This document shows positions 18,446-36,790 of a stretch of DNA of 64,000 nt, piece by piece. Made by a program: the position numbers and the translations under genes. Source of the stretch: the human T2T-CHM13v2.0 reference genome, Homo sapiens; NCBI RefSeq assembly GCF_009914755.1, contig NC_060925.1; one strand, 5' to 3'. Positions within the stretch are counted from its first letter, which is position 1. Each line of letters starts with the position of its first letter. The notes beneath the pieces were generated by a model, which was not told the DNA's origin, did not search any database, and saw only the letters and a list, made by a program, of their open reading frames with translations.

Positions 18446-18577
18446 AAGGGATTTTTGTATCAAATCTTCTTTTGTTATTTCACCAACTGAATCCAAATGT
18501 GGACAATGATTTCGAAAAGCTGACATTTTGTTAGGAATTTTTTCCTGTTTCCCAAGACTTTCAAAATGAGGTAACAC
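18446..18577 (-). CDS. USP33: USP33 exon [28 protein letters not shown]...IQKSL; internal ATG at 18526 is the start for transcripts skipping the L1 exon
   Basis: tag| acceptor, CTT|gtaaga donor; 132 nt open throughout; ATG in aaaATGt context followed by CPHL ZnF-UBP start. Confidence 0.95.
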
Positions 18578-19097
18578 CTATAAGAAAAGTAACACACACA
18601 AAAAAATTAATAAATGCTTACAATGCCTGCAAAGATTCCAAAAAATAAAAAAATTAAAATGTTAACATATTAAAAATGATTAAAAGATAACATAAGAATG
18701 ATATAAGTTTGCCCTGTAAAAAGAGTGTATTCTCAAACATAGATGAGTTTTCAGAATTGAAGTTAATCTGAACACTGGAAATTTCTCTACTACATAAACA
18801 TTTTATTAAAATTGACATCTATAAACAAATGTAAGTTTGTTTCTCCATGACTTTTGCTGCTTTTCCCCTCTCATTTCACTTTTTATAGATAAATAAAAGG
18901 GGGGAATATTCAAGTTATTCAACTGTGAAGCACTTTTATCCTTTTAAAAAAAAAATTAATCCTTAGGCTGGACTAGGAGTTGAAAAAAAAAAACTTCAAG
19001 TAGAAAGCTTCATTTTTCTACTAATAGGACCCCCTACTGATGGCATAAATTAAATCATCTGGTATCCTGGCCTTATACCAGGATAAGCACTTTATAT

Positions 19098-19321
19098 CAG
19101 GGTTTCTCGATCCCGGCACTATTGACACTTAGGGCCAGATAATTCTTCGCTGTGAGGGATTGTCCTGTGCACTGCAGGTTATTTGGCAACATTCCCACTT
19201 CTATCCACAAGAGACAGACAGACCATCCCTGCCACCACTCTGAACTCTGATGACCAGTGTCTCTAGACTGTTTTAAATTATACCCTCTGGGGGACAAAAT
19301 CTCTCCAGGTTTGAGAACCCC
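19098..19321 (+). mobile_element. MER20 (hAT-Charlie)
   Basis: cagggtttctc..ggcactattgac..ggggacaaaatc..ttgagaacc. Confidence 0.75.
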
Positions 19322-19741
19322 ATTTTCATGATCTTTACAACCCCTGAAATAGGCACCATTATTAGCTTCATTTGCACATAAGGCTAAGAGATGCAAACTT
19401 TACTGATCCACAGTGTTTGGTTCAAGTAAAGCGAGTGATTTCCAAAGGTCTCAAGTCTAATTTGGTATTCCTAGATCTTTTGGTTGTACCTTTTTAATAA
19501 CAGGGCTTTTCATGCTCTTAATTCAACTTTGAGGTTTGAGAACACTTTCCCAAAAAAAGTTTAGAACTTGCTAGGATAGAATGAAACAGTTTAAAAGTTT
19601 GAACTTCAGAAACACTGTAAATTTAATTTCCTTTGTGGTTTATAAGTTATTCAATAAACCATGCAGGTCTATGTAATAGTTTATAACTATATAGAACCCC
19701 TTTGTTACCCTGTAGCTTATATAAGAGTGTCTGTCTGCCTT

Positions 19742-20057
<316 letters not shown>

Positions 20058-20127
20058 TCTGTCTGCCTTTTAAACCCATTGCAATAAATTTGCTGAAATA
20101 TTAACACATTAGTAAATACATTTTTTT

Positions 20128-20175
20128 TATTATACTTTAAGTTCTAGGGTACATGTGCACAATGTGCAGGTTTGT
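20128..20175 (-). mobile_element. Ultra-short 5'-truncated L1PA 3' end
   Basis: ttattatactttaagttctagggtacatgtgcac L1PA terminus; TSD gtaaatacattttttt at 20112 and 20176. Confidence 0.85.
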
Positions 20176-20203
20176 GTAAATACATTTTTTTAAGAAAAGT
20201 TGA

Positions 20204-20446
<243 letters not shown>

Positions 20447-20661
20447 TAGACTACCCCAAGCCAGAGAAAAAAACCACGGGAAAGGATTAGGTAAAACAAT
20501 TCTCAAAGCCTTTAAGGGTTGTTGGTATTCTCATCAGCCACAGTTGAAAGACACCATAATAGAGGAAATAATGCACTCAGAATGGCATTGCCTCAATAAT
20601 CGGAAGAAATTATCCTTAATCTAAAGGTTACTTTGGTTCTGTCTTTAAAAAGTTCAAAAAG

Positions 20662-20953
<292 letters not shown>

Positions 20954-21375
20954 TCAAAAAGAAGTCTTAGAAGGATCAAACTGTTCCAAAGGAATTGTGT
21001 TCGGAACAAAGCTTAAGGACATTTAAAGGAATGAAAAAATTCAGTACCCATCAAGGTAAAAATCACAATAACTGGCATCTAATAAAAAATGACAGGCATT
21101 CTAAGAAGGAAATTCTGACCCACAGTGAAGAGAAAAAGAAGAAACCAAGAAATAGCACAGATGACAGAACAAAGATAGACTAAATCTTAATCTTAAAAAT
21201 TAAATCAGAACATCAGTGATATAGGGGAAAATGTTCAAATTTGATGAAAACTAGAGCCCTACAGATCCACAAGCAATTTAAACTCAGCACAAAACACACA
21301 AACTACACCATGTACATCAAAAACAAATTACTTAAAACTAGTAATAAAAAGAAAATCTTAAAAAATAGCCAACAG

Positions 21376-21670
21376 GCTGGGTACAGTAGCTAATGCCTAT
21401 AATCCCAGCACTTCGGGAGGCCAAGGCAGGAGGATTCCTTGAGCTCAGGAGTTAGAGACCAGCCTGAGCAACATAGCGAGACCTCGTCTCTACTAAAAAT
21501 TTAAAAAATCATCCAGGCATGGTGGCACGTGCCTATAGTCCCACCTACTCACGAGGCTGAGGTGAGAGGATCACCTGAGCCCAGTAGATGGCAGCTACAG
21601 TGTGCTGTGATCACACCACTGCATTCCAGTCTGAGTGACACAGCAAGATCCTGTGCCAAAAACAAAAACA
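21376..21670 (+). repeat. AluJ whose tail abuts the L1PA
   Basis: Alu consensus match. Confidence 0.88.
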
Positions 21671-21671
21671 A

Positions 21672-22418
21672 ATTTGGAATAAGTGCGACACGGTGCTAAG
21701 AATGTATATTCTGTTGATATGGTGTGGAAAGTTCTGTAGATGTCTATTAGGTCCACTTGGTGCAGAGCTGAGTTCAATTCCTGGACATCCCTGTTAACTT
21801 TCTGTCTCGTTGATCTGTCTAATGTTGACAGTGGGTGTTAAAGTCTCCCATTATTATTGTGTGGGAGTCTAAGTCTCTTTGTAGGTCTCTAAGGACTTGC
21901 TTTATGAATGTGGGTGCTCCTGTATTGGGTGCATATATATTTAGGATAGTTAGCTCTTCTTGTTGAATTGATCCCTTTACCATTATGTAATTGCCTTCTT
22001 CGTCTCTTTTGATCTTTGATGGTTTAAAGCCTGTTTTATCAGAGACTAGGATTGCAAACCCTGCTTTTTTGTTTTCCATTTGCTTGGTAGATCTTCCTCC
22101 ATCCCTTTATTTTGAGCCTATGTGTGTGTCTGCACATGAGATGGGACTCCTGAATACAGCACACTGATGGGTCTTGACTTTTTATCCAATTTGCCAGTCT
22201 GGGTCTTTTAATTGGGGCATTTAGCCCACTTACCTTTAAGGTTAATATCGTTATGTGTGAATTTGATCCTGTCATTACGATGTTAGCTGGTTATTTTGCT
22301 CATTAGTTGAGGCAGTTTCTTCCTAACATCGATGGTCTTTACAATTTGGCATGTTTTTGCAGTGGCTGGTACCGGTTGTTCCTTTCCATGTTTAGTGCTT
22401 CCTTCAGGAGCTCTTGTA
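21672..22418 (-). mobile_element. L1PA inverted 5' segment: ORF1 C-terminus, 63-nt spacer, ORF2 endonuclease N-terminal region
   Basis: Translates to ...[37 protein letters not shown].., CCIQESHL, LNIYAPN, IIMGDFNT. Confidence 0.95.
22234..22275 (-). CDS. USP33: USP33 long-isoform N-terminus MTGSNSHITILTLK, from L1 ORF2 start (coding part of an L1-derived exon ~22234-22412)
   Basis: ATG at 22275, perfect donor AAG|GTAAGT at 22234/22233, phase 0 into exon 18577. Joined peptide [24 protein letters not shown] matches the USP33 N-terminus as I recall it. Confidence 0.85.
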
Positions 22419-23714
<1,296 letters not shown>

Positions 23715-24052
23715 TAATATTTCACTAGTACTTTAATTTACGTTATCCTGACAACCAGTAAGTTTGAATGTCTTTTCATAAATGTTACAGCTTTCTGGAT
23801 TTGTTCTTTTATTAATTGCTTCTTTAAATCTTTTGCCCTTTTTACTATTGGGTCCATAACCTCTTCTTTTAAAATTAATCCTCTATCCTCTATATTGCAA
23901 AATATTTTTTCAAACTTACCTACCTACCTTTTTAATTGTGGTAAACACCATGCTGAAAAGATTGCCCTCTCCCCACTGAATGGTCTTGGCATCACTGTCA
24001 AAAATCATTTGATCATATATAGTACATAAGGATTTATTTCTGGGCTTCTGGG

Positions 24053-24370
24053 CTTTTTTTTTTTTTTTTTTTTTTAAAGAGATGGTGTCTTGTTCCATTA
24101 CTTTCATTACTCAGGGGAGTGCAGTGGCATGATCATAGCTCACTGCAACCTCCAACTCATAGACCCAAACAATTCCACTGCCGCAGCCTTCCAAGCAGCT
24201 AGGACTACAGGTGTGAGCCACCCCACCTGGCTAATTTTTAACTTTCTTTTGTGGAGACAAAGTCTTGCTATGTTGACCAGGCTGGTCTCAAACTCCTAGC
24301 CTCAAGCAATCCTCCTAACCTTGGACTCCCAAAGCGCTGGGATTATAAGCATGAGCCACTGCACCAAGCC
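24053..24370 (-). repeat. AluJ
   Basis: Diverged Alu match. Confidence 0.85.
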
Positions 24371-25201
24371 TATTCCTAATCTATTCCATTGGTCAATATG
24401 TCTGTCTTAATGCCAATACTGTTATTAACTTTCTTATGGTATCCTTTACCATTAAAAGGTCTTAATTTTTGTAAAATTAAATATGCCTCTTGTAATAGCT
24501 TCTGAGTTTCTTATCTTCACATTTCCTTTACCCTAGCTTGTATAACTAAACCTGGAGAATAACCTTAAGTATTTCTATAAGGCTTTGATCCATCTGGAAT
24601 TTATCTTAAGATAGGAACCCAATTTTATTTTCTTCCAGATGGGCAGACAGTTGTACCAGCACCACTTATTAAATAATCTCCCCATTTCCCATTGAACTGT
24701 AATACTACCTTTATCTTTTATTAAATCTGCACATATACTGGATTTCTGGATTCTCTATTTTATTCCACCAATCTATGACAATACCATATTAATCTGATTA
24801 CAGAGGCTAGATACAATATTTTGGTAACAAAAGACACACCTCCTCACTAATCCTTTTCATGGTTTCCCTGGCTACACTGTGGCTGTAATGGAAAACATAA
24901 GTTTTCCATTTTTATTTTGTTTCAACCTTTCAAAAAGTTTTACTTCTTTTCAAGGGGAGGAGTTTTAGTTCTTATTTCAAGGGGAGGAGTTTTAGTTCTT
25001 ATTTTCTGATATTAACACCATTATTCACTTTTACTGTTTTAATGCATTTACCAGAACCTCTTAAGACAATACTGAATACAAATGTGATCATGGGCATCCC
25101 CAAGTCCCCATCAAGTTTCTAATTTTAATGCTCTTGACATTTAGGATATTTGCTGTAACTTCCCTCTATTCTTACTTTACTTATTAGAAATGGTCTTGAT
25201 G

Positions 25202-25495
25202 GGCTGGGCATGGTAGCTCACATCTGTAATCCCAGCAATTTGGGAGGCTGAGGCGGGTGGATCACAAGATCAGGAGTTTAAGACTAGCCTGGTCAATATG
25301 GTGAAACCCCATCTCTACTAAAAATACAAAAATTAGCCAGGCATGGTGGCAGGCGCCTGTAGTCCCAGCTACTCAGGAGACTGAGGCAGGAGAATCACTT
25401 TAACCCGGGAGGCAGAGGCTGCAGTGAGCCAAGATTGCGTCACTGCACTCCATCCTGGCGACACAGCGAGACTCCGTCTCAAAAAAAAAAAAAAA
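25202..25495 (+). repeat. AluS
   Basis: TSD agaaatggtcttgatg. Confidence 0.9.
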
Positions 25496-26061
25496 GAAAT
25501 GGTCTTGATGAACTATGGCTAATATTGTATTTAGAAATTTTGCATTTCTGGGCATAAGTGAGACTGTTCTTTTTTGGCAGCATTCCTTCCCTCCCCCCCC
25601 CCCCCCGTGCTTGAATCAGGATTGGCAGCATTTATCAGAGATAAAATATGTGTGCTTCACAGAATGCATTGACTAGCTTTGCATTCTTCATCATGGAAAA
25701 GAGAGTTCCTTTTTATTATAATGATGTGTTGTTCTTCATAAATGAAACTCAGCTGTGAAATTATATGCTATGCTGCCTCTGTCAAGAACCAATCTTCCAT
25801 CATTTTTTCAAACCTTTCATGGGGATTGGGCAATTAACATTTTTACTTCTTGGGTCAATTTTACTCATTGACATTTTGCTATAACAACATCCATTTTCTC
25901 TTGAAATAACTTTGACAGTATAGCATTACATGTATATTCTCAAGAAAATCTGCAAAAGATTCCATTAATGTCTCCTGTATTTGGGGTCTATGGTGTTTAC
26001 TCATTCCCAATCTTGTACATTTTTATTCCATATCTTTTTCTTCTACAAGATGTTTATCTAG

Positions 26062-26529
<468 letters not shown>

Positions 26530-26824
26530 TGAGCGCTTTGTTTACTGAAAGTATTTAAGCTATGTATTTTCCTCTAAAGTAAAAATTCTGCATTTGCCAA
26601 TGAAATGTAGATGTTCTTCTCACTGCTTTTTAGGCAATACTATTTTGCCTCAGAGGAAAGAAATGGGATCAGAGGATTGAAAAGAAACTTCCAAGATAAA
26701 TATTTTTTTCTAAAATCTCAAGCAAAAAATAAGATTAAAATAAATTCTCTCTGCTGATAGCTGAGATGAAAAAAAGAATAAAACATAAATACATTCTCTC
26801 TGCTCTGCTATTAATTTTGCATTA

Positions 26825-27500
<676 letters not shown>

Positions 27501-28180
27501 GAAAAGAATTAGTGCATGTAAACAAAGGCTAACAATTTGTCCCAAGGATATTTAGTATCCCGTATAATACAATGCTATCAAAATAGAAAACCCTTAGTAT
27601 TTTCTTTGCCTAGTTTTACTCAGTTTATTTACTAAGGTAATAAAATCATTCTTTTATTCCTTTATTTGACAAATGTTTATTGAGGGTAGGGCATTCAGAT
27701 ATAGTAGGGTAAGACAATGGGAGTTCTTAGCTACTTCAATTTCTTCTCAAATTGTACACCAAAAGAAAGAAGGCATGTATGCTTCCATTCTTGTCTGATA
27801 ATTTAATCACAGGAGATGAGTATTAGACATTAGAAAAAAACAGAAAATGGTTGTATATGGAAATGCTATTGTCCAATCCACAGAAGTAGATTTTGCAAAA
27901 CTAAGACTCCTGTAGAAGCTTGTGACTTACAAGTTGGAAATCACAAAGAGTGCACAAGATTTTATCTGTTTGTCCTTATCTTTGTAATCTTGTATCTGGC
28001 AGCTTTTTCCTCTATCTGCCACACTAACTGGACTACTGGAAGTTTTCTCACCAATAATGATGGCAGCAACACCAACTGAAAATTTTTCCAGATGAAAACG
28101 ACTGCACTCACGCTCTATGATGTACAGCTCCGGTGGCTAAATTGCTCATCTGCATTAAAGTAAATGCAAAACTGCTTCTG

Positions 28181-28798
<618 letters not shown>

Positions 28799-28948
28799 GA
28801 AGATATTACTTTTAAGGGGAGAATATTTTCGTAGTACAATCTCCAAATTCCAGGTTGAAATTCTGACCCCTTATCCTAATAGAAGATAATCAATCAGCTA
28901 TTCAAATTTTAATATTAGGAAAAGTATAGGGAACCATGTTATTAGTAC

Positions 28949-29249
<301 letters not shown>

Positions 29250-29605
29250 TAATATAATAATTACACATCAGGACATAGTTGGTAACCTAAGGAGCTTTTA
29301 ATATTGAGAAACTGCCTGAATTCCATTGCCTAGTCTATTCCAAAAAGTAAAGCTCTTCATAAAAAGTCAGATTCACATTACAGAGAAAAAAAATTATGTC
29401 AGAAGGATTGGTAGCTATTTAATAGTTACATATAAGATTAATATGAATGCAGGAGGTCTTCACTAGCAGGTGTCAGAACTGCTCAATATTTTTAACAATA
29501 ACCTGGATAAAGCTACAGAAGGCAGGCTAGTAAAATATAAACTTAAAATTATAAAAATAAGTTTTTAAAGAAAAATTAAACTATTTTTTAAAATAAGCTA
29601 AAATT

Positions 29606-29910
<305 letters not shown>

Positions 29911-32138
29911 ATTAGCTAAAATTAACAGGACGAAATTTAATAATGATGGATGTGATATTCGACATTGGGATTCAAAGAATCAACCATATAAACTGAGACC
30001 AAAAAAGGGGGTCAGGTATTTGGATTCTAGACCCTTGAAGAAGTAGCAATTCCTACTCAATTAATCAACAGAACACTAGGTTTCAAGGTTTCAGAATAAA
30101 AAGAGTAACCAGTCTTGCTGGGTATGGTGGCTCACACCTGTAATCCCAGCACTCTGGGAGGCAGGGGCATGAGGATCGCTTGAGGCCAAGAGTTCAAGAC
30201 CAGCCTAGGCAACAGAGTGATACCCACCCCCCATCTTTACAAAAAAAAAATAATAATTTTTTAATTGAATAGAGTGGTGAAAAGGGGAAAAAATAATAGC
30301 CAATCTTAATGTTCGCATAAAATAAGTAGATTATATCTGGAATACAGTATTTTATTTAAGAAGAATACTAAAAGCTACAGAATAAGAGTGCCTCTCATAG
30401 AAAACCTTAAAAGAAATAATTTGAAAACTGTATCTTATAAGATAGCACTGTACTAAGAGTAAAGTTTCTGGAGCAAGGCTCCACTATCTCCTAGATTTGG
30501 GACCAGTGGTAAGTTTCTTCTCTTTGCCTTAGCTCCCTCATCTAAAACACTGATCTAATTACAAATATCTACTTTCTAGAGTTTTGGAGAAGATTAATAT
30601 ATAATATTTTAAACTAATTATATAATTACACATAATACGTTAATATATAATTACATATTATATATTAGTATATATAAAATACTTAGAAGAGGGTGATATA
30701 GTAAGTACTCAGTAAATGTCAACCATTACGAACTGAAAGCATGGATGTTTAAACAGCAGAAGGCAAAAGATGCCAGGACTTGATACACATGTTCCAATTG
30801 AACATGATGACCAAAGGGATCCTTTCTTTTCTGTGCAACTTGAGAAAGTCAGAACAGCATATTCAATCAACGGTGAAGACTTCGGTTCAAATACAGATGA
30901 ACTTTCATGGAAGGAGCATGTTCCCCATAATTGTTACACAGAGGTTGGGTAACTGTCAGAGGTGCTTCAAAGGACAGCAAGCACTTTGCACTAAAAACTC
31001 AGAATTGAATTAAGATTCTATGATTATAAAAAAATTGATTTGTCTTTCAACAGTTTCAATCTAGACTATGGTTCCACGAGTACTAGTCCAGCAGTACCAT
31101 ATGAAATATTACACTTTAGCAAAAATACAATGAAGGAATAAGCTTATGGCTTATCTTTCCATATTTATCATGGAAGAAAATTGCTACCCAATAAAAGCAA
31201 GCCAAAAAAACTGATGAATGGAAGGAAGTTATCAATGAAGAGTGCAACAACAAGCAGAAAAGTTTATTTTATTCTCAATCCATAGTAAGTGCTCAGGGAG
31301 ACTTTTCACAAAAGAAATCAGCTGACAAGCATTTTAAATAACTGTTTCTTTCCCTTTAAACAAATATTCTGAGAATAAAATCATTCAAACCTCTGTGAGG
31401 ATTTGAAGATCCCACAAAGTCCTATAATACTTACCTAATCATTCTTAATTTTCATTCAAAACCACAACACAGAAAAAGAAATGTAGTGCTAATCTTTTTA
31501 TTTCTCTTTTACTAGAAAATCTGTCTCATTGATCCTTAAGAGTCTAATTAATGAGAGCCTTAAGGCTATTAAAAGAAATACGCAGTCTTCTAACTGAGTT
31601 CTCTGGCTACAACCTATGTGTTCTACAATCTATTCTTAACATTACCACTATTAATAATACCAAAGTATAGCTCCAATCTGGCAATCTTCATTCCAAATAA
31701 CATCCTCTAAATGAGATTTGTAAATATTAATTAGCATTTCCTATAAAGATTTTTAAAAATCTGTCCAATAATGAATGGCAAAATATGGTCAATTCTAGCC
31801 TTATCTCGTTGAAATAATTTTGAGAAATATTGGAAGAGAGAGGAAATAGAAATGAATTAATGAATATGACAGAGTTCTAACAGAGTCTCAAATAAGCTGA
31901 TGATAATTTTCACTCTAAGTCTCACTTTTGAGCAAGATGAAGAGTTAATATACTGGCATTACGGAACAGTCATTAAAAATATTCATGTAAACCACATAGA
32001 AACATGGAAAAACCTAAATCTTCAGTTCAGCTTGTGAGCAAAAAGAAAAAAGAAAGAAAGAATATGAGAAAACAAATGCTATCACCATATTCAAATGAGA
32101 ACCACCATAAGAAAAATTATCAATTCTTTTATTGTTTA

Positions 32139-32510
<372 letters not shown>

Positions 32511-34906
32511 AGTAAAATATATAAGAAATTCCTCTTCTAGGATTTTATAAAAGTTAAAACCTGTGGGAAATGGTCTTATTTTAGGTCACATTCAGCCCTA
32601 TAGTTTCACCACATTACTGTATTTCAGGACTGTGATAAGCCCTGGGGGATAGAAATTAATTTAACAAATGCTTATAATCCAGCATGGGCCAGACATTATA
32701 AGTTTGTGGGGATGGCAGCATTGTTCAAGTCTCCACCCTGCTTTCCTTTTGAATGACTGGTCATCAACACTCTTATCATCACTCTCCTGAATACTATGCA
32801 ATTTTTTCACTTTCCTTAAAAAACTAATTTGAAAGTCAGTGTCCTTCTGTCAACCCTTCTTTTTCACAAGTTAACTAACTTTTAAACCTCAGTACCATCT
32901 TAGATCCCTCCTTACTTTTTTCATTTACTTTTTTTGAAATGGGAGGCTCTCTATATTGCCCAGGTTGGACTTGAACTTCTGGGCTCAAGCAAATCTCCTG
33001 TTTCAGCCTCCCAAGTGACTGAGACTACAGGCTCAAGCCACAGCACCTGGCTCCCCTCCTCACTTTCTATCAGTTTCTAAATTCGGCATTTTTTTTTTTA
33101 ACCACATTTCATCTCACATTTCTTCTAGGTCTCTATCTAAATTGAGGCTTTTATTTCACATCTGGATTATTCAATGAGAATGCCTGTTAAGACACAGAGT
33201 TGATACCTGGACCATCTCCTTTCAGCTCACTTCAATGTTTACTTGTAGCTGGTATGCACAGTTAACACACTGACAACTTCCCATCTCAACTACTTCTCTC
33301 CTCAGCTCTCCAGCACCTCAGGAGCTTGCCAAGCCCTACCTAACCAGTGTACCTGGGAAGTTCTGGGAGCCTTTTAGATAAAGGCAATCTTTATCAGTGA
33401 GGATTGACTGTAGATGGAAAACCACCCAGCTCCCCTTCATTTGGGGCAGTTATACAAAACTCTGAGGCAGTTATACAAAAATCTCCAAAGGCTTAAGCAG
33501 CCTCCAGTTGGCCTTCCACTATTAACCTTTTTTCCTCCTTCTCTGATTCTACCTGCTTCCTCACTTGTGCTTTATAGCATCTCACCTGCACCCATGTCAT
33601 CTCAGGTCCAAGTTCAAGATGCACTTCAGAGAAACCATAAGGGCTACAAAAATAATGGTCACAATCTAGCTTAACATAAAGCCACCCCAGCAGTCTTCCA
33701 GTCTCAATCTTCTAACAGTTACAGCTCATTTTCCTTTCATGTGGATCACATACCTCTTCTGATCAAACACCTTCAGTGAAGTCTTTCATAATTTGTCTTC
33801 TTTATCTATTATTAACTTACATAAACTATGAATATCAGCCACATTGTTCTACCGATGTTTTCTCAAATGTAAGTTGTACCCTTCAAGGAGCTCATTAATC
33901 TGTTCACATTACAAATATCCTCCAATATTTACCTTTCAAAGCTCACTCATCTCAAATACTACCTTCACCAAGCCCCAATCACAAGTAATGTCTACCTCAC
34001 CTAAATTCCTAAGGAACTTTTATAAAAACTCATAAGGCATTTACTGTTGTGTAAAAAATTGCCTCACTTGACTACAAGTTCTTTGAAGGCAGAAACCACG
34101 TTTCATTCTTTTTGTTTTCCAAAGGGCCTTGTCCTGGTAGACTCAAAATATTGACCTAACTTAACCTTCTGAACATTTGACAGCATGATTTATTTTGATA
34201 TACATATTGTTTCTTAAAGACTAGTTCTCAGTATACAATATAGCACATAATTCATGTGCCTTTTTATAGATAGTTAAAAGCAACTGTACTCATCTCACAC
34301 TCTTTGGAGTTTTCCCACTTATCAAAATGTTCCTGCAGACACATGTACACTTTTAAAGTTTAAAAACTACACTAAATAGAGCTGTTACTTATTCCCTTCC
34401 TTTTTAGAAATGGTTACATTTCACATTTCTCACCAAAAATCTTTCAGCATTTTATGTACTTCATTTTCTTGTGAAGAGTCCACAGTCTTGTCATATGTTA
34501 TAGTTCACAGTGCTCCAATCTTAATCTATCTGAATTCCCAATCTGTATCAAAAGCTGCTTTGGCAACATTATTTCAGGCTTTACGAAATTCTGATCCTTA
34601 CACAATCTTGAAATGTTTCTGTCATGGGGAAAGACTTTATTTCTTGGCATTCGGAGCTCAGAGGACTGGCATGAGGATCAAGTAAGACTGTGTAAGTGAA
34701 AGGTCACAGAAAATTCTAATACTACTACATAAATGTAAGAATTATCATCTCAATTCTGAATTTCAAATATTTAAAATCACCTATTTACTACAATCTAATG
34801 TCATTAAACTGCAGTTATATAAAAAGACTTGCTTACTGTTAAGTTATAAAAAGTTCAGAAAAGACAGAAAAAAAGTGAAACTGGCCATAAACCAGATCAT
34901 AAATAG

Positions 34907-35284
<378 letters not shown>

Positions 35285-35964
35285 TGACCTTTCTTTCAAT
35301 CCTGCCAAAGTAATGAAATAATACAAAGCTCCTAGCATTGTGTAACTATTTCTATTATTTTTTCATAAAACTAGCATTGTCTTTAAGATTCCTATTTTCT
35401 CTCTTATTTATAATAGTATGAATTCACTAACAATATTTGTATTATGCTCAAATCAAATAGCCTATGACGATAATGTGACTTGGTCAGACCTTTCCAAATA
35501 AGACAGTAGGAAAAACGGAACTAGGACGGCCTTGTTACTTTTTGTAACACGTTTTTCTTAAAGGAAAAATAATCTGATTAAACTTAAAAATTCTCTACAT
35601 CCACATAGTTATTAAGCAAAAGGCCTAGAGATCGTTACGGTAAAATTCACCTTCAATTTAAGTCTATGCTCCTGCCAGAATTTCACCCTCTGGCTCAATT
35701 TTCCAGGCCTAATACTGATTCTATGAGAATGTAAACTCCAACGGTACTTGAGTGCAAAACACCCAGGAAAATCTCATCGTCCAAGAGCTCAACGTAAAAC
35801 CCTGTAAATATTCAAATGAAGAGCGTTTTGTATACGAGAAATATAAGTAAAGGTCTGGGAAACCACACACTATGGATCTTTCATCCAAACAAAGGCTGCA
35901 GATGGACAGAAGGTAAGGGGTAACCTCTCAGTCAAGATCAAACATTGGTCGAAGAAAAATTCCA

Positions 35965-36790
35965 GGGACGATGACACCTCGGTTTTTCCGTTCACAACAA
36001 CAAACAACGGGGCCGGCCCCCTCAACAGCGCCGAAAAGCGAAACCAGAACCCAGGAGCCGGCGCGCTGCAGGGCTTTCAGTCACCCACTGAGAGGGACTG
36101 GCAAGCCTGAGTGGGGAGACCGAGGAAGGGAGCAGAGCCCCCGCTTCTCGGGCTCACCTGCACCTCCCGCTTCCAGGGAAGAACCCCTGAGGACCCTTCC
36201 TCAAATCAACGACCGGTTCCCATCCTCCACCGACCGTTGACAGGGCGACCACTAGATTATCTCTGCAACGCAGAGCACCGAGGGGCCAAGGCCTTCTTCC
36301 CGCCCGCGAACCCGCCGCCACCCAGGACCAAGAAAAAGAGGCTGCTGCAGCGGCCGCAACCCCAGCGCGCGGAAGCGAGAACAGAGACCGGACCCCGGAC
36401 GCGAGCGAAACGCCCTTGGGCCCCGCGCCCCTCCCAGCAGCGCCGCGCTCACCTCCACGGCCTGGCCCGCGGGACCCGCCAGCTCGACCAACAACGGCCT
36501 GCAGCCGCACCTCCGCAAGCTCCTCTTTTCCTTCTCAGCTCTCGGAGAGGGGCAGTGTCGCGTCAGGAGGGCCGGAAAACGGCCCCGCAGCGCTGCCCTC
36601 GGGGGGTCCGCCTCCTGAACTGGCCACTTCCCGCAGCAGCCGCGGCTCCTTCCGGTGTCTCCGGGGCCGCCGCAGGCGTCTCCGGCGATAGGGGAGGTGG
36701 GGGCGGAGCCTCGATGGGAGCCCGCCCCAGGGGCGGGGCCACGGGAGCCAGGCCCAGGTGCGGGGACCCAGGCCGGCTCCCTACTCTGAC
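35965..36790. promoter_or_regulatory. USP33 CpG-island promoter with Sp1 GC boxes (~36700, ~36730) and ETS-type CTTCCGG (~36649)
   Basis: Abrupt GC/CpG enrichment; ggggcggagc, ggggcggggc, ccttccggt motifs. Confidence 0.9.
36453..36690 (-). other. USP33: USP33 non-coding first exon (TSS approximate)
   Basis: GAG|gtgagc donor at 36453/36452 inside the CpG island; GC boxes just upstream. Confidence 0.75.

What the first reader, a model, noticed from the sequence alone, without database searches (positions are those of the whole stretch)
22276..22389. Captured L1 bicistronic junction: ORF1-tail uORF plus exact 63-nt spacer ahead of the USP33 ATG
Seen: within the L1 exon, ATG 22389 (aacATGg, strong Kozak) opens [16 protein letters not shown]. 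It ends at the native ORF1 stop (22341-22339), exactly 63 nt before the ORF2/USP33 ATG; further short uATGs lie nearby. Known: L1 ORF2 is translated inefficiently by termination/re-initiation that needs an upstream translated ORF. Inference: including this exon imports that mechanism into a host mRNA, making it a translational attenuator or switch between long and short USP33. This is the best candidate for an undescribed regulatory system in the window.
Basis: partly seen in the sequence, partly recalled or inferred. Interest (0 to 1): 0.8.

Follow-up and report, generated by a model that had tools for sequence, protein, structure and literature searches.

The report
L1-derived uORF-rich alternative USP33 exon
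An optional 5' exon of the human USP33 gene is a piece of an old L1 retrotransposon that brings the L1 ORF1 stop, the 63-base spacer and the ORF2 start codon into the mRNA, adding four small upstream reading frames and a new start codon; it is real, but it is an ordinary transposon-derived leader rather than a shown new regulatory system.

Summary
The USP33 cassette exon 22412-22234 (minus strand) holds ATG 22389 (aacATGg), a 16-codon ORF ending at the L1 ORF1 stop (22341-22339), a 63-nt spacer, and the L1 ORF2 ATG (22275). That ATG is in frame with the annotated USP33 start and adds 31 codons. None of this arose in place: in 29 related L1 copies the uATG is kept in 28, and the stop and 63-nt spacer in all 29. 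What is special to this copy is the donor AAG|GTAAGT (0 of 29). The exon is already in print as an HNRNPM-repressed cassette exon (Ho et al. 2021, supplementary table), though not as an L1 junction. The "imported L1 mechanism" reading is weak. The captured parts (ORF1 3' end, spacer) are reported dispensable for L1 ORF2 translation, and the upstream ORF here has 16 codons, so ordinary uORF rules (leaky scanning, reinitiation, possibly NMD) suffice. The exon shows no sequence constraint (5/179 vs 44/1543 private changes). One loose end remains: two of the five private changes perfect a spacer hairpin that holds the ORF2 ATG (0 of 29 copies fold as stably). No translation data could be examined. 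Verdict: new member of a known kind, modest interest.

The parts
36453..36662 (-). USP33 exon 1 (210 nt, 71% GC), 5' leader without any ATG
   Evidence: Given annotation; no ATG before mRNA position 234; GC content; primer of Ho et al. maps at 36527-36546
22234..22412 (-). L1-derived alternative cassette exon (179 nt). The acceptor AG is at 22414-22413. The donor is AAG|GTAAGT, with GT at 22233-22232
   Evidence: Given annotation. Equals hg19 chr1:78211106-78211284 in Ho et al. fig4-data3, with sizes 179/132/210 matching
22339..22389 (-). uORF1: the last 16 codons of L1 ORF1 plus its native TAA stop. Its ATG is in strong context and is the first AUG of the exon-including mRNA
   Evidence: kept in 28/29 (ATG) and 29/29 (TAA) related copies
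22323..22352 (-). uORF2 (9 codons, other frame, overlaps the end of uORF1), adequate context
   Evidence: ATG in 29/29 copies
22303..22329 (-). uORF3 (8 codons, weak context), inside the spacer. Its stop overlaps the next ATG (TAATG)
   Evidence: ATG in 25/29 copies
22283..22303 (-). uORF4 (6 codons, weak context), inside the spacer
   Evidence: ATG in 20/29 copies
22276..22338 (-). L1 inter-ORF spacer, exactly 63 nt
   Evidence: 63 nt in 29/29 copies
22273..22334 (-). Predicted spacer hairpin (22334-22323 pairs with 22286-22273, plus an inner stem). It encloses uATG3 and uATG4 and pairs the ORF2 ATG. Two private substitutions (22326, 22278) close two C.A mismatches
   Evidence: MFE -14.8 kcal/mol on 22345-22262, z -2.2; 0 of 29 copies as stable (range -12.7 to -7.4)
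22234..22275 (-). First 14 codons of L1 ORF2 (MTGSNSHITILTLK), usable as the start of the long USP33 reading frame. Codon 14 is Lys rather than the Asn of human ORF2p, because of the donor-creating T>G at 22234
18446..18577 (-). USP33 exon 2. 18577-18527 is read as 17 more codons of the extension. The annotated ATG at 18526 starts the short (selected-transcript) protein
   Evidence: Given annotation. The conserved ZnF-UBP domain and the USP20 paralogue align only from just after this Met
21669..22419 (-). L1 piece in sense on the USP33 strand: ORF1 tail to about ORF2p residue 202
   Evidence: 92-93.5% identity to 5 of 5 copies tested
22421..23715 (+). L1 piece in the opposite orientation (antisense in the USP33 pre-mRNA): ORF2p residues 203 to about 634. 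It overlaps the other piece by 8 nt in L1 coordinates (5'-inversion architecture). No L1 3' end follows
23212..23369 (-). Second HNRNPM-repressed exon (158 nt) in the antisense-L1 piece. It is not in the given RefSeq table and adds four more uATGs when included
   Evidence: Ho et al. fig4-data3, hg19 78212084-78212241; mapped and splice sites read (ataccag|GCTTTG ... TTTTTG|gttggt)
36176..36199 (-). Start of the HNRNPM-binding stretch of intron 1 that Ho et al. cloned (186 nt in their file). Only these first 24 nt were located here

Best explanation
A 5'-inverted fragment of an old primate L1 lies in USP33 intron 1. Its sense-oriented part became a cassette exon because an AG native to the end of ORF1 serves as acceptor, and two point substitutions turned AAT|GTAAAT in ORF2 codons 14-16 into the consensus donor AAG|GTAAGT. 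The exon therefore carries, as passive cargo, the last 16 codons and stop of ORF1, the 63-nt spacer and the ORF2 start codon.

Inclusion is held down by HNRNPM. When the exon is included, the otherwise AUG-free leader gains four uAUGs. The first is in strong context, so most scanning ribosomes should translate the 16-codon uORF1 (inferred). A fraction then reinitiates by the conventional short-uORF route (inferred). Some of that fraction would start at the spacer uAUGs, some at ATG 22275 (63 nt on, long protein with 31 extra residues) and some at ATG 18526 (156 nt on, short protein).

Termination 105 nt upstream of an exon junction may also expose the mRNA to NMD (inferred). The net effect is a generic transposon-derived attenuating leader that also offers an alternative start codon. 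No L1-specific translation mechanism is needed.
For: Anatomy and frames. L1 identity.

Inheritance. The 29 copies are the best non-self loci of 40 scored out of 1636 first-look candidates, and so are biased towards similarity:
- uATG1 28/29
- Kozak A-3/G+4 29/29
- uATG2 29/29
- TAA 29/29
- spacer of 63 nt 29/29
- uATG3 25/29
- uATG4 20/29
- ORF2 ATG 27/29
- acceptor AG 29/29

Copy-specific donor: the 9-mer AAGGTAAGT is in 0/29, G at -1 in 4/29, G at +5 in 2/29.

Inversion junction at 22419-22421 with an 8-nt overlap.

No constraint: private substitutions are 5/179 in the exon against 44/1543 in the flanking L1 (Fisher p = 1.0).

HNRNPM repression:
- Ho et al. 2021 (PMC8346284) list this exon with IncLevelDifference -0.335 and -0.24 and bound = 1 (supplement file 5).
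- Negative values mean increased inclusion on knock-down.
- Their RT-PCR primers sit in exon 1 and across exons 2/3 (predicted amplicons 243 and 422 nt).

L1 cis parts dispensable: Dai et al. 2014 passage. Short-uORF reinitiation as a distinct mechanism: Gunisova et al. passage. TE-derived uORFs as a known class. The given annotation's selected transcript skips the exon.
Against: No ribosome profiling, proteomic or reporter data were examined, so every translational step is inferred.

Two of the five private exonic substitutions perfect a hairpin that encloses the spacer uAUGs and pairs the ORF2 ATG, and 0 of 29 copies fold as stably. This could hint at selection on the spacer, which a purely passive-cargo view does not predict.

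The constraint test has little power (5 observed against about 5 expected).

The primary paper on L1 ORF2 translation (Alisch 2006) was not held. Its results are taken second-hand, and one review says sequences within ORF2 may matter. The exon keeps 42 nt of ORF2.

Baseline inclusion levels were not visible to me, since the figures are not held.
Confidence: 0.75

Rival explanations
1. One reading: the exon imports the L1-specific unconventional termination/reinitiation mechanism, so that ORF2-ATG (long USP33) translation is coupled to translation and termination of the ORF1 tail as it is in L1 RNA.
For: The native ORF1 stop, the exact 63-nt spacer and the ORF2 AUG are all in the mature mRNA, and the uAUG is the first AUG, in strong context. 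[quoted passage not shown] 42 nt of ORF2 are retained, and one review suggests ORF2 sequences help position the ribosome.
Against: The ORF1 3' end and the spacer are reported dispensable, and the upstream ORF need not be ORF1. The L1 peculiarity is reinitiation after a long ORF, and here the ORF has 16 codons. No TURBS-type UGGGA motif is in the exon. Every element is inherited, with no sign of constraint. Only 42 nt of ORF2 remain.
Confidence: 0.07
2. Adaptive isoform switch of the C/EBP or ATF4 kind: uORF1 plus the two in-frame starts (63 and 156 nt downstream) make the ratio of 942-aa-type to 911-aa-type USP33 depend on reinitiation competence (eIF2 activity), with HNRNPM-controlled splicing as the gate.
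For: The geometry fits: a short strong uORF, then two in-frame AUGs at increasing distance. The exon is regulated by a splicing factor across several cell lines. The hairpin-perfecting substitutions hint at some selection.
Against: There is no constraint on the exon as a whole. The extension has no counterpart in the paralogue USP20, and the conserved domain starts after the short start. No paper in the library links USP33 to uORFs (1 hit, irrelevant) or describes a function for the extension. The selected transcript skips the exon.
Confidence: 0.12
3. Splicing noise: the exon is a tolerated L1 pseudo-exon whose inclusion merely lowers productive USP33 mRNA (poison-type 5' exon), and the long protein is an artefact of the longest-ORF annotation rule.
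For: HNRNPM normally suppresses the exon, and Ho et al. call it mis-splicing. They predict most such events lead to NMD or altered frames. A preprint shows hnRNPM generally masks L1 pseudo splice sites. The uORF1 stop is 105 nt before an exon junction. No constraint is seen.
Against: The donor is a perfect consensus, and the exon is in curated transcripts of the given annotation. Inclusion is detectable without knock-down, which is implied by the event being quantifiable but was not seen directly. This rival overlaps with the best explanation in mechanism and differs only on whether any long protein is made.
Confidence: 0.3
4. Shunt-like reinitiation: the spacer hairpin brings the uORF1 stop (4 nt 5' of the stem) next to the ORF2 AUG (in the stem base), so post-termination 40S subunits bypass the spacer uAUGs.
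For: The hairpin is predicted with MFE -14.8 kcal/mol and z -2.2. It is more stable than in 29 of 29 relatives, owing to two private mismatch-closing changes. The review raises looping as one way to bridge the L1 spacer.
Against: A stem of about -15 kcal/mol is weak compared with known shunt structures (recalled) and should be melted by scanning complexes. The spacer is reported dispensable in L1. The statistic is post hoc. There is no structural probing.
Confidence: 0.05

Closest known systems
Human L1 ORF1-ORF2 bicistronic junction (unconventional termination/reinitiation; Alisch et al. 2006, seen only through Dai 2014 and Gunisova 2018 passages)
   Same: The sequence is homologous: ORF1 C-terminal codons, TAA stop, 63-nt spacer with the same internal ATGs, and the ORF2 AUG.
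   Different: The upstream ORF has 16 codons instead of 338. Only 42 nt of ORF2 follow. The downstream ORF is a host protein. The parts retained are those reported dispensable in L1.
Transposon-derived uORFs in human 5' UTRs (Kitano et al. 2018, seen as cited in PMC10439571)
   Same: TE sequence in a 5' leader supplies uAUGs and stops upstream of the host start codon.
   Different: Here the uORF is the remnant of a real TE gene end, and the TE also supplies an in-frame alternative start codon for the host protein.
hnRNPM-repressed L1 pseudo-exons (Ho et al. 2021; Zheng et al. preprint 2023)
   Same: The exon lies in an intronic L1, has consensus-like splice sites, and its inclusion rises on HNRNPM knock-down. 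The exon is itself in Ho et al.'s table.
   Different: It is an annotated exon that extends the coding frame rather than an unannotated cryptic exon. The papers do not discuss its L1 junction content (USP33 passages; 0 mentions of USP33 in the preprint).
uORF-controlled choice between in-frame starts (C/EBP alpha/beta; recalled, no call)
   Same: A short uORF is followed by two in-frame AUGs that give long and short isoforms.
   Different: There is no evidence here that both proteins arise from one mRNA or that the ratio is regulated. The extension is 31 residues of no known function.
Short-uORF plus stem ribosome shunt (caulimovirus type; recalled, no call)
   Same: A short uORF ends a few nt before a stem, with the next start at the 3' base of the stem.
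   Different: The stem is short and weak, and there is no evidence of shunting.

Membership tests
L1 ORF1/spacer/ORF2 junction (sequence homology) | ORF1p C-terminal coding sequence ending at its stop | tested here: met
   match to LINE-1 ORF1p chain 2yko (E 3.3e-05). TAA at the same place in 29/29 copies.
L1 ORF1/spacer/ORF2 junction (sequence homology) | 63-nt inter-ORF spacer | tested here: met
   63 nt in 29/29 related copies. The 63 bp length is stated in PMC4091050 and PMC5972666.
L1 ORF1/spacer/ORF2 junction (sequence homology) | ORF2p N-terminus starting at the next ATG | tested here: met
   residues 1-71 of human ORF2p, E 6.5e-38.
L1-type unconventional termination/reinitiation (mechanism) | Reinitiation follows completion of a long upstream cistron | tested here: not met
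   In the spliced mRNA the upstream ORF has 16 codons. The exon starts 23 nt before its ATG.
L1-type unconventional termination/reinitiation (mechanism) | Downstream initiation independent of the AUG codon | not testable with these tools
   Needs reporters with a mutated ATG 22275. The property is taken from the Dai 2014 passage.
L1-type unconventional termination/reinitiation (mechanism) | Possible positioning sequences within ORF2 | tested here: inconclusive
   Only the first 42 nt of ORF2 are in the exon. Which ORF2 sequences matter is not stated in what I could read.
Generic uORF-mediated translational control | uAUG with an in-frame stop upstream of the main AUG in the mature mRNA | tested here: met
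   four uORFs, all ending before ATG 22275. The first is the first AUG of the mRNA, in strong context.
Generic uORF-mediated translational control | Evidence that the uORF is translated and alters downstream initiation | not testable with these tools
   No Ribo-seq or reporter data were available. No paper links USP33 and uORFs.
TURBS-type termination-reinitiation (calicivirus, influenza B) | UGGGA motif 1 upstream of the stop, and stop/start overlap or close proximity | tested here: not met
   No TGGGA in the exon. The uORF1 stop and ATG 22275 are 63 nt apart.
hnRNPM-repressed L1-derived exon | Exon and both splice sites lie inside an intronic L1 | tested here: met
hnRNPM-repressed L1-derived exon | Inclusion rises when HNRNPM is depleted, and HNRNPM binds the flanking intron | tested here: met
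   From print, not from my own data: Ho et al. supplement file 5, sign convention, primers mapped, binding site located in intron 1.
L1 5' inversion (twin priming; recalled definition) | Two adjacent L1 segments in opposite orientation, contiguous in L1 coordinates with a small overlap or gap | tested here: met
   8-nt overlap in 5 of 5 copies used as rulers.
L1 5' inversion (twin priming; recalled definition) | The sense segment runs to the L1 3' end with a poly(A) tail and target-site duplications | tested here: not met
   the segment stops at 23715 (ORF2p about residue 634). No further L1 3' sequence lies in 23716-36400. Target-site duplications were not searched for.

The most novel reading that the evidence does not exclude
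The L1 inter-ORF spacer is a stem that places the ORF1 stop next to the ORF2 AUG. In the USP33 copy, selection closed its two mismatches. On this reading the host mRNA uses a tethered or shunt-like reinitiation from the 16-codon ORF1 remnant straight to the ORF2 AUG, skipping the spacer uAUGs. Together with HNRNPM-gated splicing, that would set the ratio of long to short USP33. It would also say something about how L1 itself reaches ORF2.
Probability: 0.05. Interest if true: 0.65.

Novelty: new member of a known kind. Interest (0 to 1): 0.3.

Why it matters
If the leader works as inferred, HNRNPM level would control USP33 in two ways. It would set how much USP33 mRNA carries a uORF-laden, possibly NMD-prone leader, and it would decide whether a primate-specific N-terminal extension of 31 residues can be made at all. 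The locus is also a clean natural example of how an L1 gene boundary can be turned into host leader plus start codon by only two splice-site substitutions. It offers a handy natural construct for asking whether the L1 ORF1 tail and spacer have any cis activity outside L1. It does not by itself open a long-standing question.

Tried and rejected
1. Inversion improving the acceptor. I tested whether the L1 inversion supplied a better polypyrimidine tract. The pyrimidine count is 11/18 in the window against 10-12/18 at the same place in 29 native copies. Rejected as stated, although the tract is U-rich rather than C-rich.

2. Constraint on the exon. Private substitutions are 5/179 against 44/1543 (p = 1.0). 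No signal, and low power.

3. Known RNA families. The Rfam scan of 21600-23800 at E <= 1 gave 2 sub-threshold matches, both far below gathering scores and neither relevant.

4. TURBS motif: absent.

5. Fold of the whole exon and of exon 1: not more stable than shuffles (z -0.42 and -0.25).

6. Invalid columns. The 'energy in the window structure' columns are invalid, because non-canonical pairs were scored. They are not used.

7. Searching for the rest of the L1. No L1 3' part lies in 19000-36400 apart from a 55-nt fragment at 20121-20175.

8. Literature searches:
- USP33 + LINE-1: 10 papers, none on this exon. One concerns a somatic L1 insertion in a USP33 intron.
- USP33 + uORF: 1 paper, irrelevant.
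- USP33 + transposable element + exon: 8 papers, which led to Ho et al..
- The 14-residue N-terminal peptide as a text string: 0 papers.
- One search was wasted by loose term settings.

9. Not available:
- Alisch 2006 and Thorne 2011 are not held.
- Supplements of other TE-exonization catalogues were not searched and may list this exon.

Full report
**1. The observation**

Read on the minus strand, the alternative USP33 exon of the given annotation (22412-22234, 179 nt) is bounded by ttacaag|AG and AAAG|gtaagt.
- Its first ATG (22389-22387, aacATGg, A at -3 and G at +4) opens [16 protein letters not shown] and stops at TAA 22341-22339.
- Positions 22338-22276 are exactly 63 nt.
- ATG 22275-22273 (gtaATGa) then reads 14 codons to the donor and 17 more in exon 2. 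It joins the annotated start at 18526 in frame, giving 31 extra codons with no stop.
- Three more uATGs (22352, 22329, 22303) open ORFs of 9, 8 and 6 codons.
- Exon 1 has no ATG, so 22389 is the first AUG of the exon-including mRNA. The exon-skipping leader has no uAUG at all.

**2. What the sequence is**

The reading frame from 22275 matches human LINE-1 ORF2p residues 1-71 (E 6.5e-38). The frame ending at 22341 matches the C-terminus of LINE-1 ORF1p (E 3.3e-05).

Upstream of 22420 the USP33 strand carries L1 in antisense. On the plus strand, 22422-22778 is ORF2p 203-320 and 23418-23717 is ORF2p 536-633.

I used five related genomic copies as rulers. The sense piece runs 22419 to 21669 and the opposite piece 22421 to 23715. 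The two overlap by 8 nt in L1 coordinates in 5 of 5 copies. This is the architecture of a 5'-inverted L1 (twin priming, recalled). The element has no 3' end or poly(A) in 23716-36400, so its history is not fully resolved.

**3. Inherited or evolved in place?**

The host genome is held. The exon finds over a thousand L1 candidates (1299 and 1636 first-look candidates, 40 scored each time). I compared the window with the 29 best non-self loci, a sample biased towards similarity. Counts:

| Feature | Copies sharing it |
|---|---|
| uATG1 | 28/29 |
| Kozak bases of uATG1 (A-3, G+4) | 29/29 |
| uATG2 | 29/29 |
| ORF1 TAA stop | 29/29 |
| Spacer of 63 nt | 29/29 |
| uATG3 | 25/29 |
| uATG4 | 20/29 |
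| ORF2 ATG | 27/29 |
| Acceptor AG | 29/29 |
| Donor 9-mer AAGGTAAGT | 0/29 |

The usual donor-position 9-mer is AATGTAAAT (23/29). G at -1 occurs in 4/29 and G at +5 in 2/29. So the whole "bicistronic junction" is ordinary L1 cargo, and what made the exon is a pair of donor substitutions. One of them changes ORF2 codon 14 from Asn to Lys.

The inversion did not raise the pyrimidine count ahead of the acceptor: 11/18 against 10-12/18 in native copies.

Private substitutions are as frequent in the exon (5/179) as in the flanking L1 (44/1543; Fisher p = 1.0). There is no sign of constraint, though the test is weak.

**4. What is in print**

No paper in the library links USP33 with uORFs or describes this exon as L1-derived. 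The N-terminal peptide string occurs in none.

The exon itself is published, however. Ho et al., eLife 2021 (PMC8346284; I read passages and supplement files 5, 8 and 9) list a skipped-exon event at hg19 chr1:78211106-78211284.
- It is flanked by 78207302-78207433 and 78225328-78225537. The sizes are 179, 132 and 210 nt, exactly the L1 exon, exon 2 and exon 1.
- IncLevelDifference is -0.335 and -0.24 for the two shRNAs, and HNRNPM-bound = 1.
- Negative values are increased inclusion after knock-down.
- Their validation primers map to exon 1 (36527-36546) and across the exon 2/3 junction. The predicted products are 243 and 422 nt.
- The HNRNPM site they cloned starts at 36199 in intron 1.
- They call the event mis-splicing and see it in several cell lines.

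A preprint (10.1101/2023.02.23.529804, passages) generalises that hnRNPM masks L1 pseudo splice sites. It does not mention USP33.

The same table holds a second, stronger event at 78212084-78212241. This maps to 23369-23212 in the antisense-L1 piece, has good splice sites and adds four more uATGs.

**5.

I could not read Alisch et al. 2006.

Dai et al. 2014 (PMC4091050, passage) summarise it as follows:
- No IRES is known in human L1.
- ORF2p translation is independent of the ORF2 AUG and of ORF1p function.

Gunisova et al. 2018 (PMC5972666, passages) add two points. Sequences within ORF2 may position the ribosome. Reinitiation after short uORFs follows different rules from termination-reinitiation after long ORFs.

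The USP33 exon keeps exactly the parts reported dispensable, plus 42 nt of ORF2. Its upstream ORF has 16 codons. It has no TURBS-type UGGGA motif and no Rfam match. Nothing therefore requires, or specifically supports, an L1-type mechanism. A short strong-context uORF 63 nt ahead of an AUG is the textbook setting for conventional reinitiation (recalled general knowledge).

**6. Most likely working**

Shown:
- the exon and its splice sites
- its L1 origin
- the uORFs and frames
- HNRNPM repression (from print)

Inferred:
- Most 43S complexes start at 22389 and terminate at 22339.
- Some resume scanning and restart at uATG4 (35 nt on), at ATG 22275 (63 nt on, long protein) or at ATG 18526 (156 nt on, short protein).
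- uATG2 is reachable only by leaky scanning.
- Termination 105 nt before the next exon junction may trigger NMD.

Net effect: less USP33 per mRNA, and the possibility of a long isoform. The conserved ZnF-UBP domain and the paralogue USP20 align only from just after the short start. The extension is thus a late add-on. I recall that databases list 942- and 911-residue isoforms, which fits the 31 codons, but no call showed this.

**7. A loose end**

The spacer folds into a hairpin in which 22334-22323 pairs with 22286-22273. On 22345-22262 the MFE is -14.8 kcal/mol, with z -2.2 against shuffles. The uORF1 stop lies 4 nt before the stem. uATG3 and uATG4 lie within the hairpin. The ORF2 ATG pairs at the stem base.

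In the relatives the same stem has two C.A mismatches. The window closes both: C>T at 22326, shared by 1/29, and A>G at 22278, shared by 3/29. These are two of only five private changes in the exon. No relative folds as stably (0/29; range -12.7 to -7.4).

My rough estimate of chance is about 1e-3. It is post hoc, and the stem is weak. I record it as unexplained and as the basis of the most novel reading, at 5%.

**8. Verdict**

- Observation: confirmed.
- Interpretation: partly supported. A uORF-laden leader with an alternative start, yes. An imported L1 mechanism or a new regulatory system, not supported.
- Novelty: a new member of known kinds (TE-derived uORFs, hnRNPM-repressed L1 exons, TE-supplied start codons).
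- Interest: 0.3.

Noticed in passing
window 23212-23369 (minus strand): A second HNRNPM-repressed exon of 158 nt in the antisense-L1 piece (acceptor ataccag|G, donor TTTTTG|gttggt). It is absent from the given RefSeq table. In Ho et al. its inclusion change is larger (-0.75/-0.54, and -0.98/-0.94 when the L1 exon is the neighbour). It adds four more uATGs, one in strong context.
   Followed up: partly
window 22234 (ORF2 codon 14): The donor-creating T>G turns ORF2p Asn14 into Lys. I recall Asn14 as a catalytic residue of the L1 endonuclease. The change creates a tryptic site that would make the N-terminal peptide of long USP33 distinguishable from L1 ORF2p in proteomics.
   Followed up: no
window 22301-22305 and 22273-22277: Two TAATG stop/start-type overlaps occur in the spacer. 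The uORF3 stop overlaps uATG4. A TAA also overlaps the ORF2 ATG, although no uORF ends there.
   Followed up: no
window 21620-21668: An Alu-like 3' end with an A-rich tail abuts the distal end of the inverted L1 piece at 21669. The order of insertion was not worked out.
   Followed up: no
window 20121-20175: An isolated 55-nt fragment is 96% identical to a far-3' part of a related L1 copy (L039 1494-1548). It lies about 1.5 kb from the main L1 fragment and might be a remnant of the missing 3' part or of another element.
   Followed up: no
window 36176-36199 (intron 1, about 250 nt past the exon 1 donor): The start of the G-rich HNRNPM-binding stretch that Ho et al. tested in a splicing reporter lies some 14 kb from the exon it helps to silence.
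   Followed up: partly
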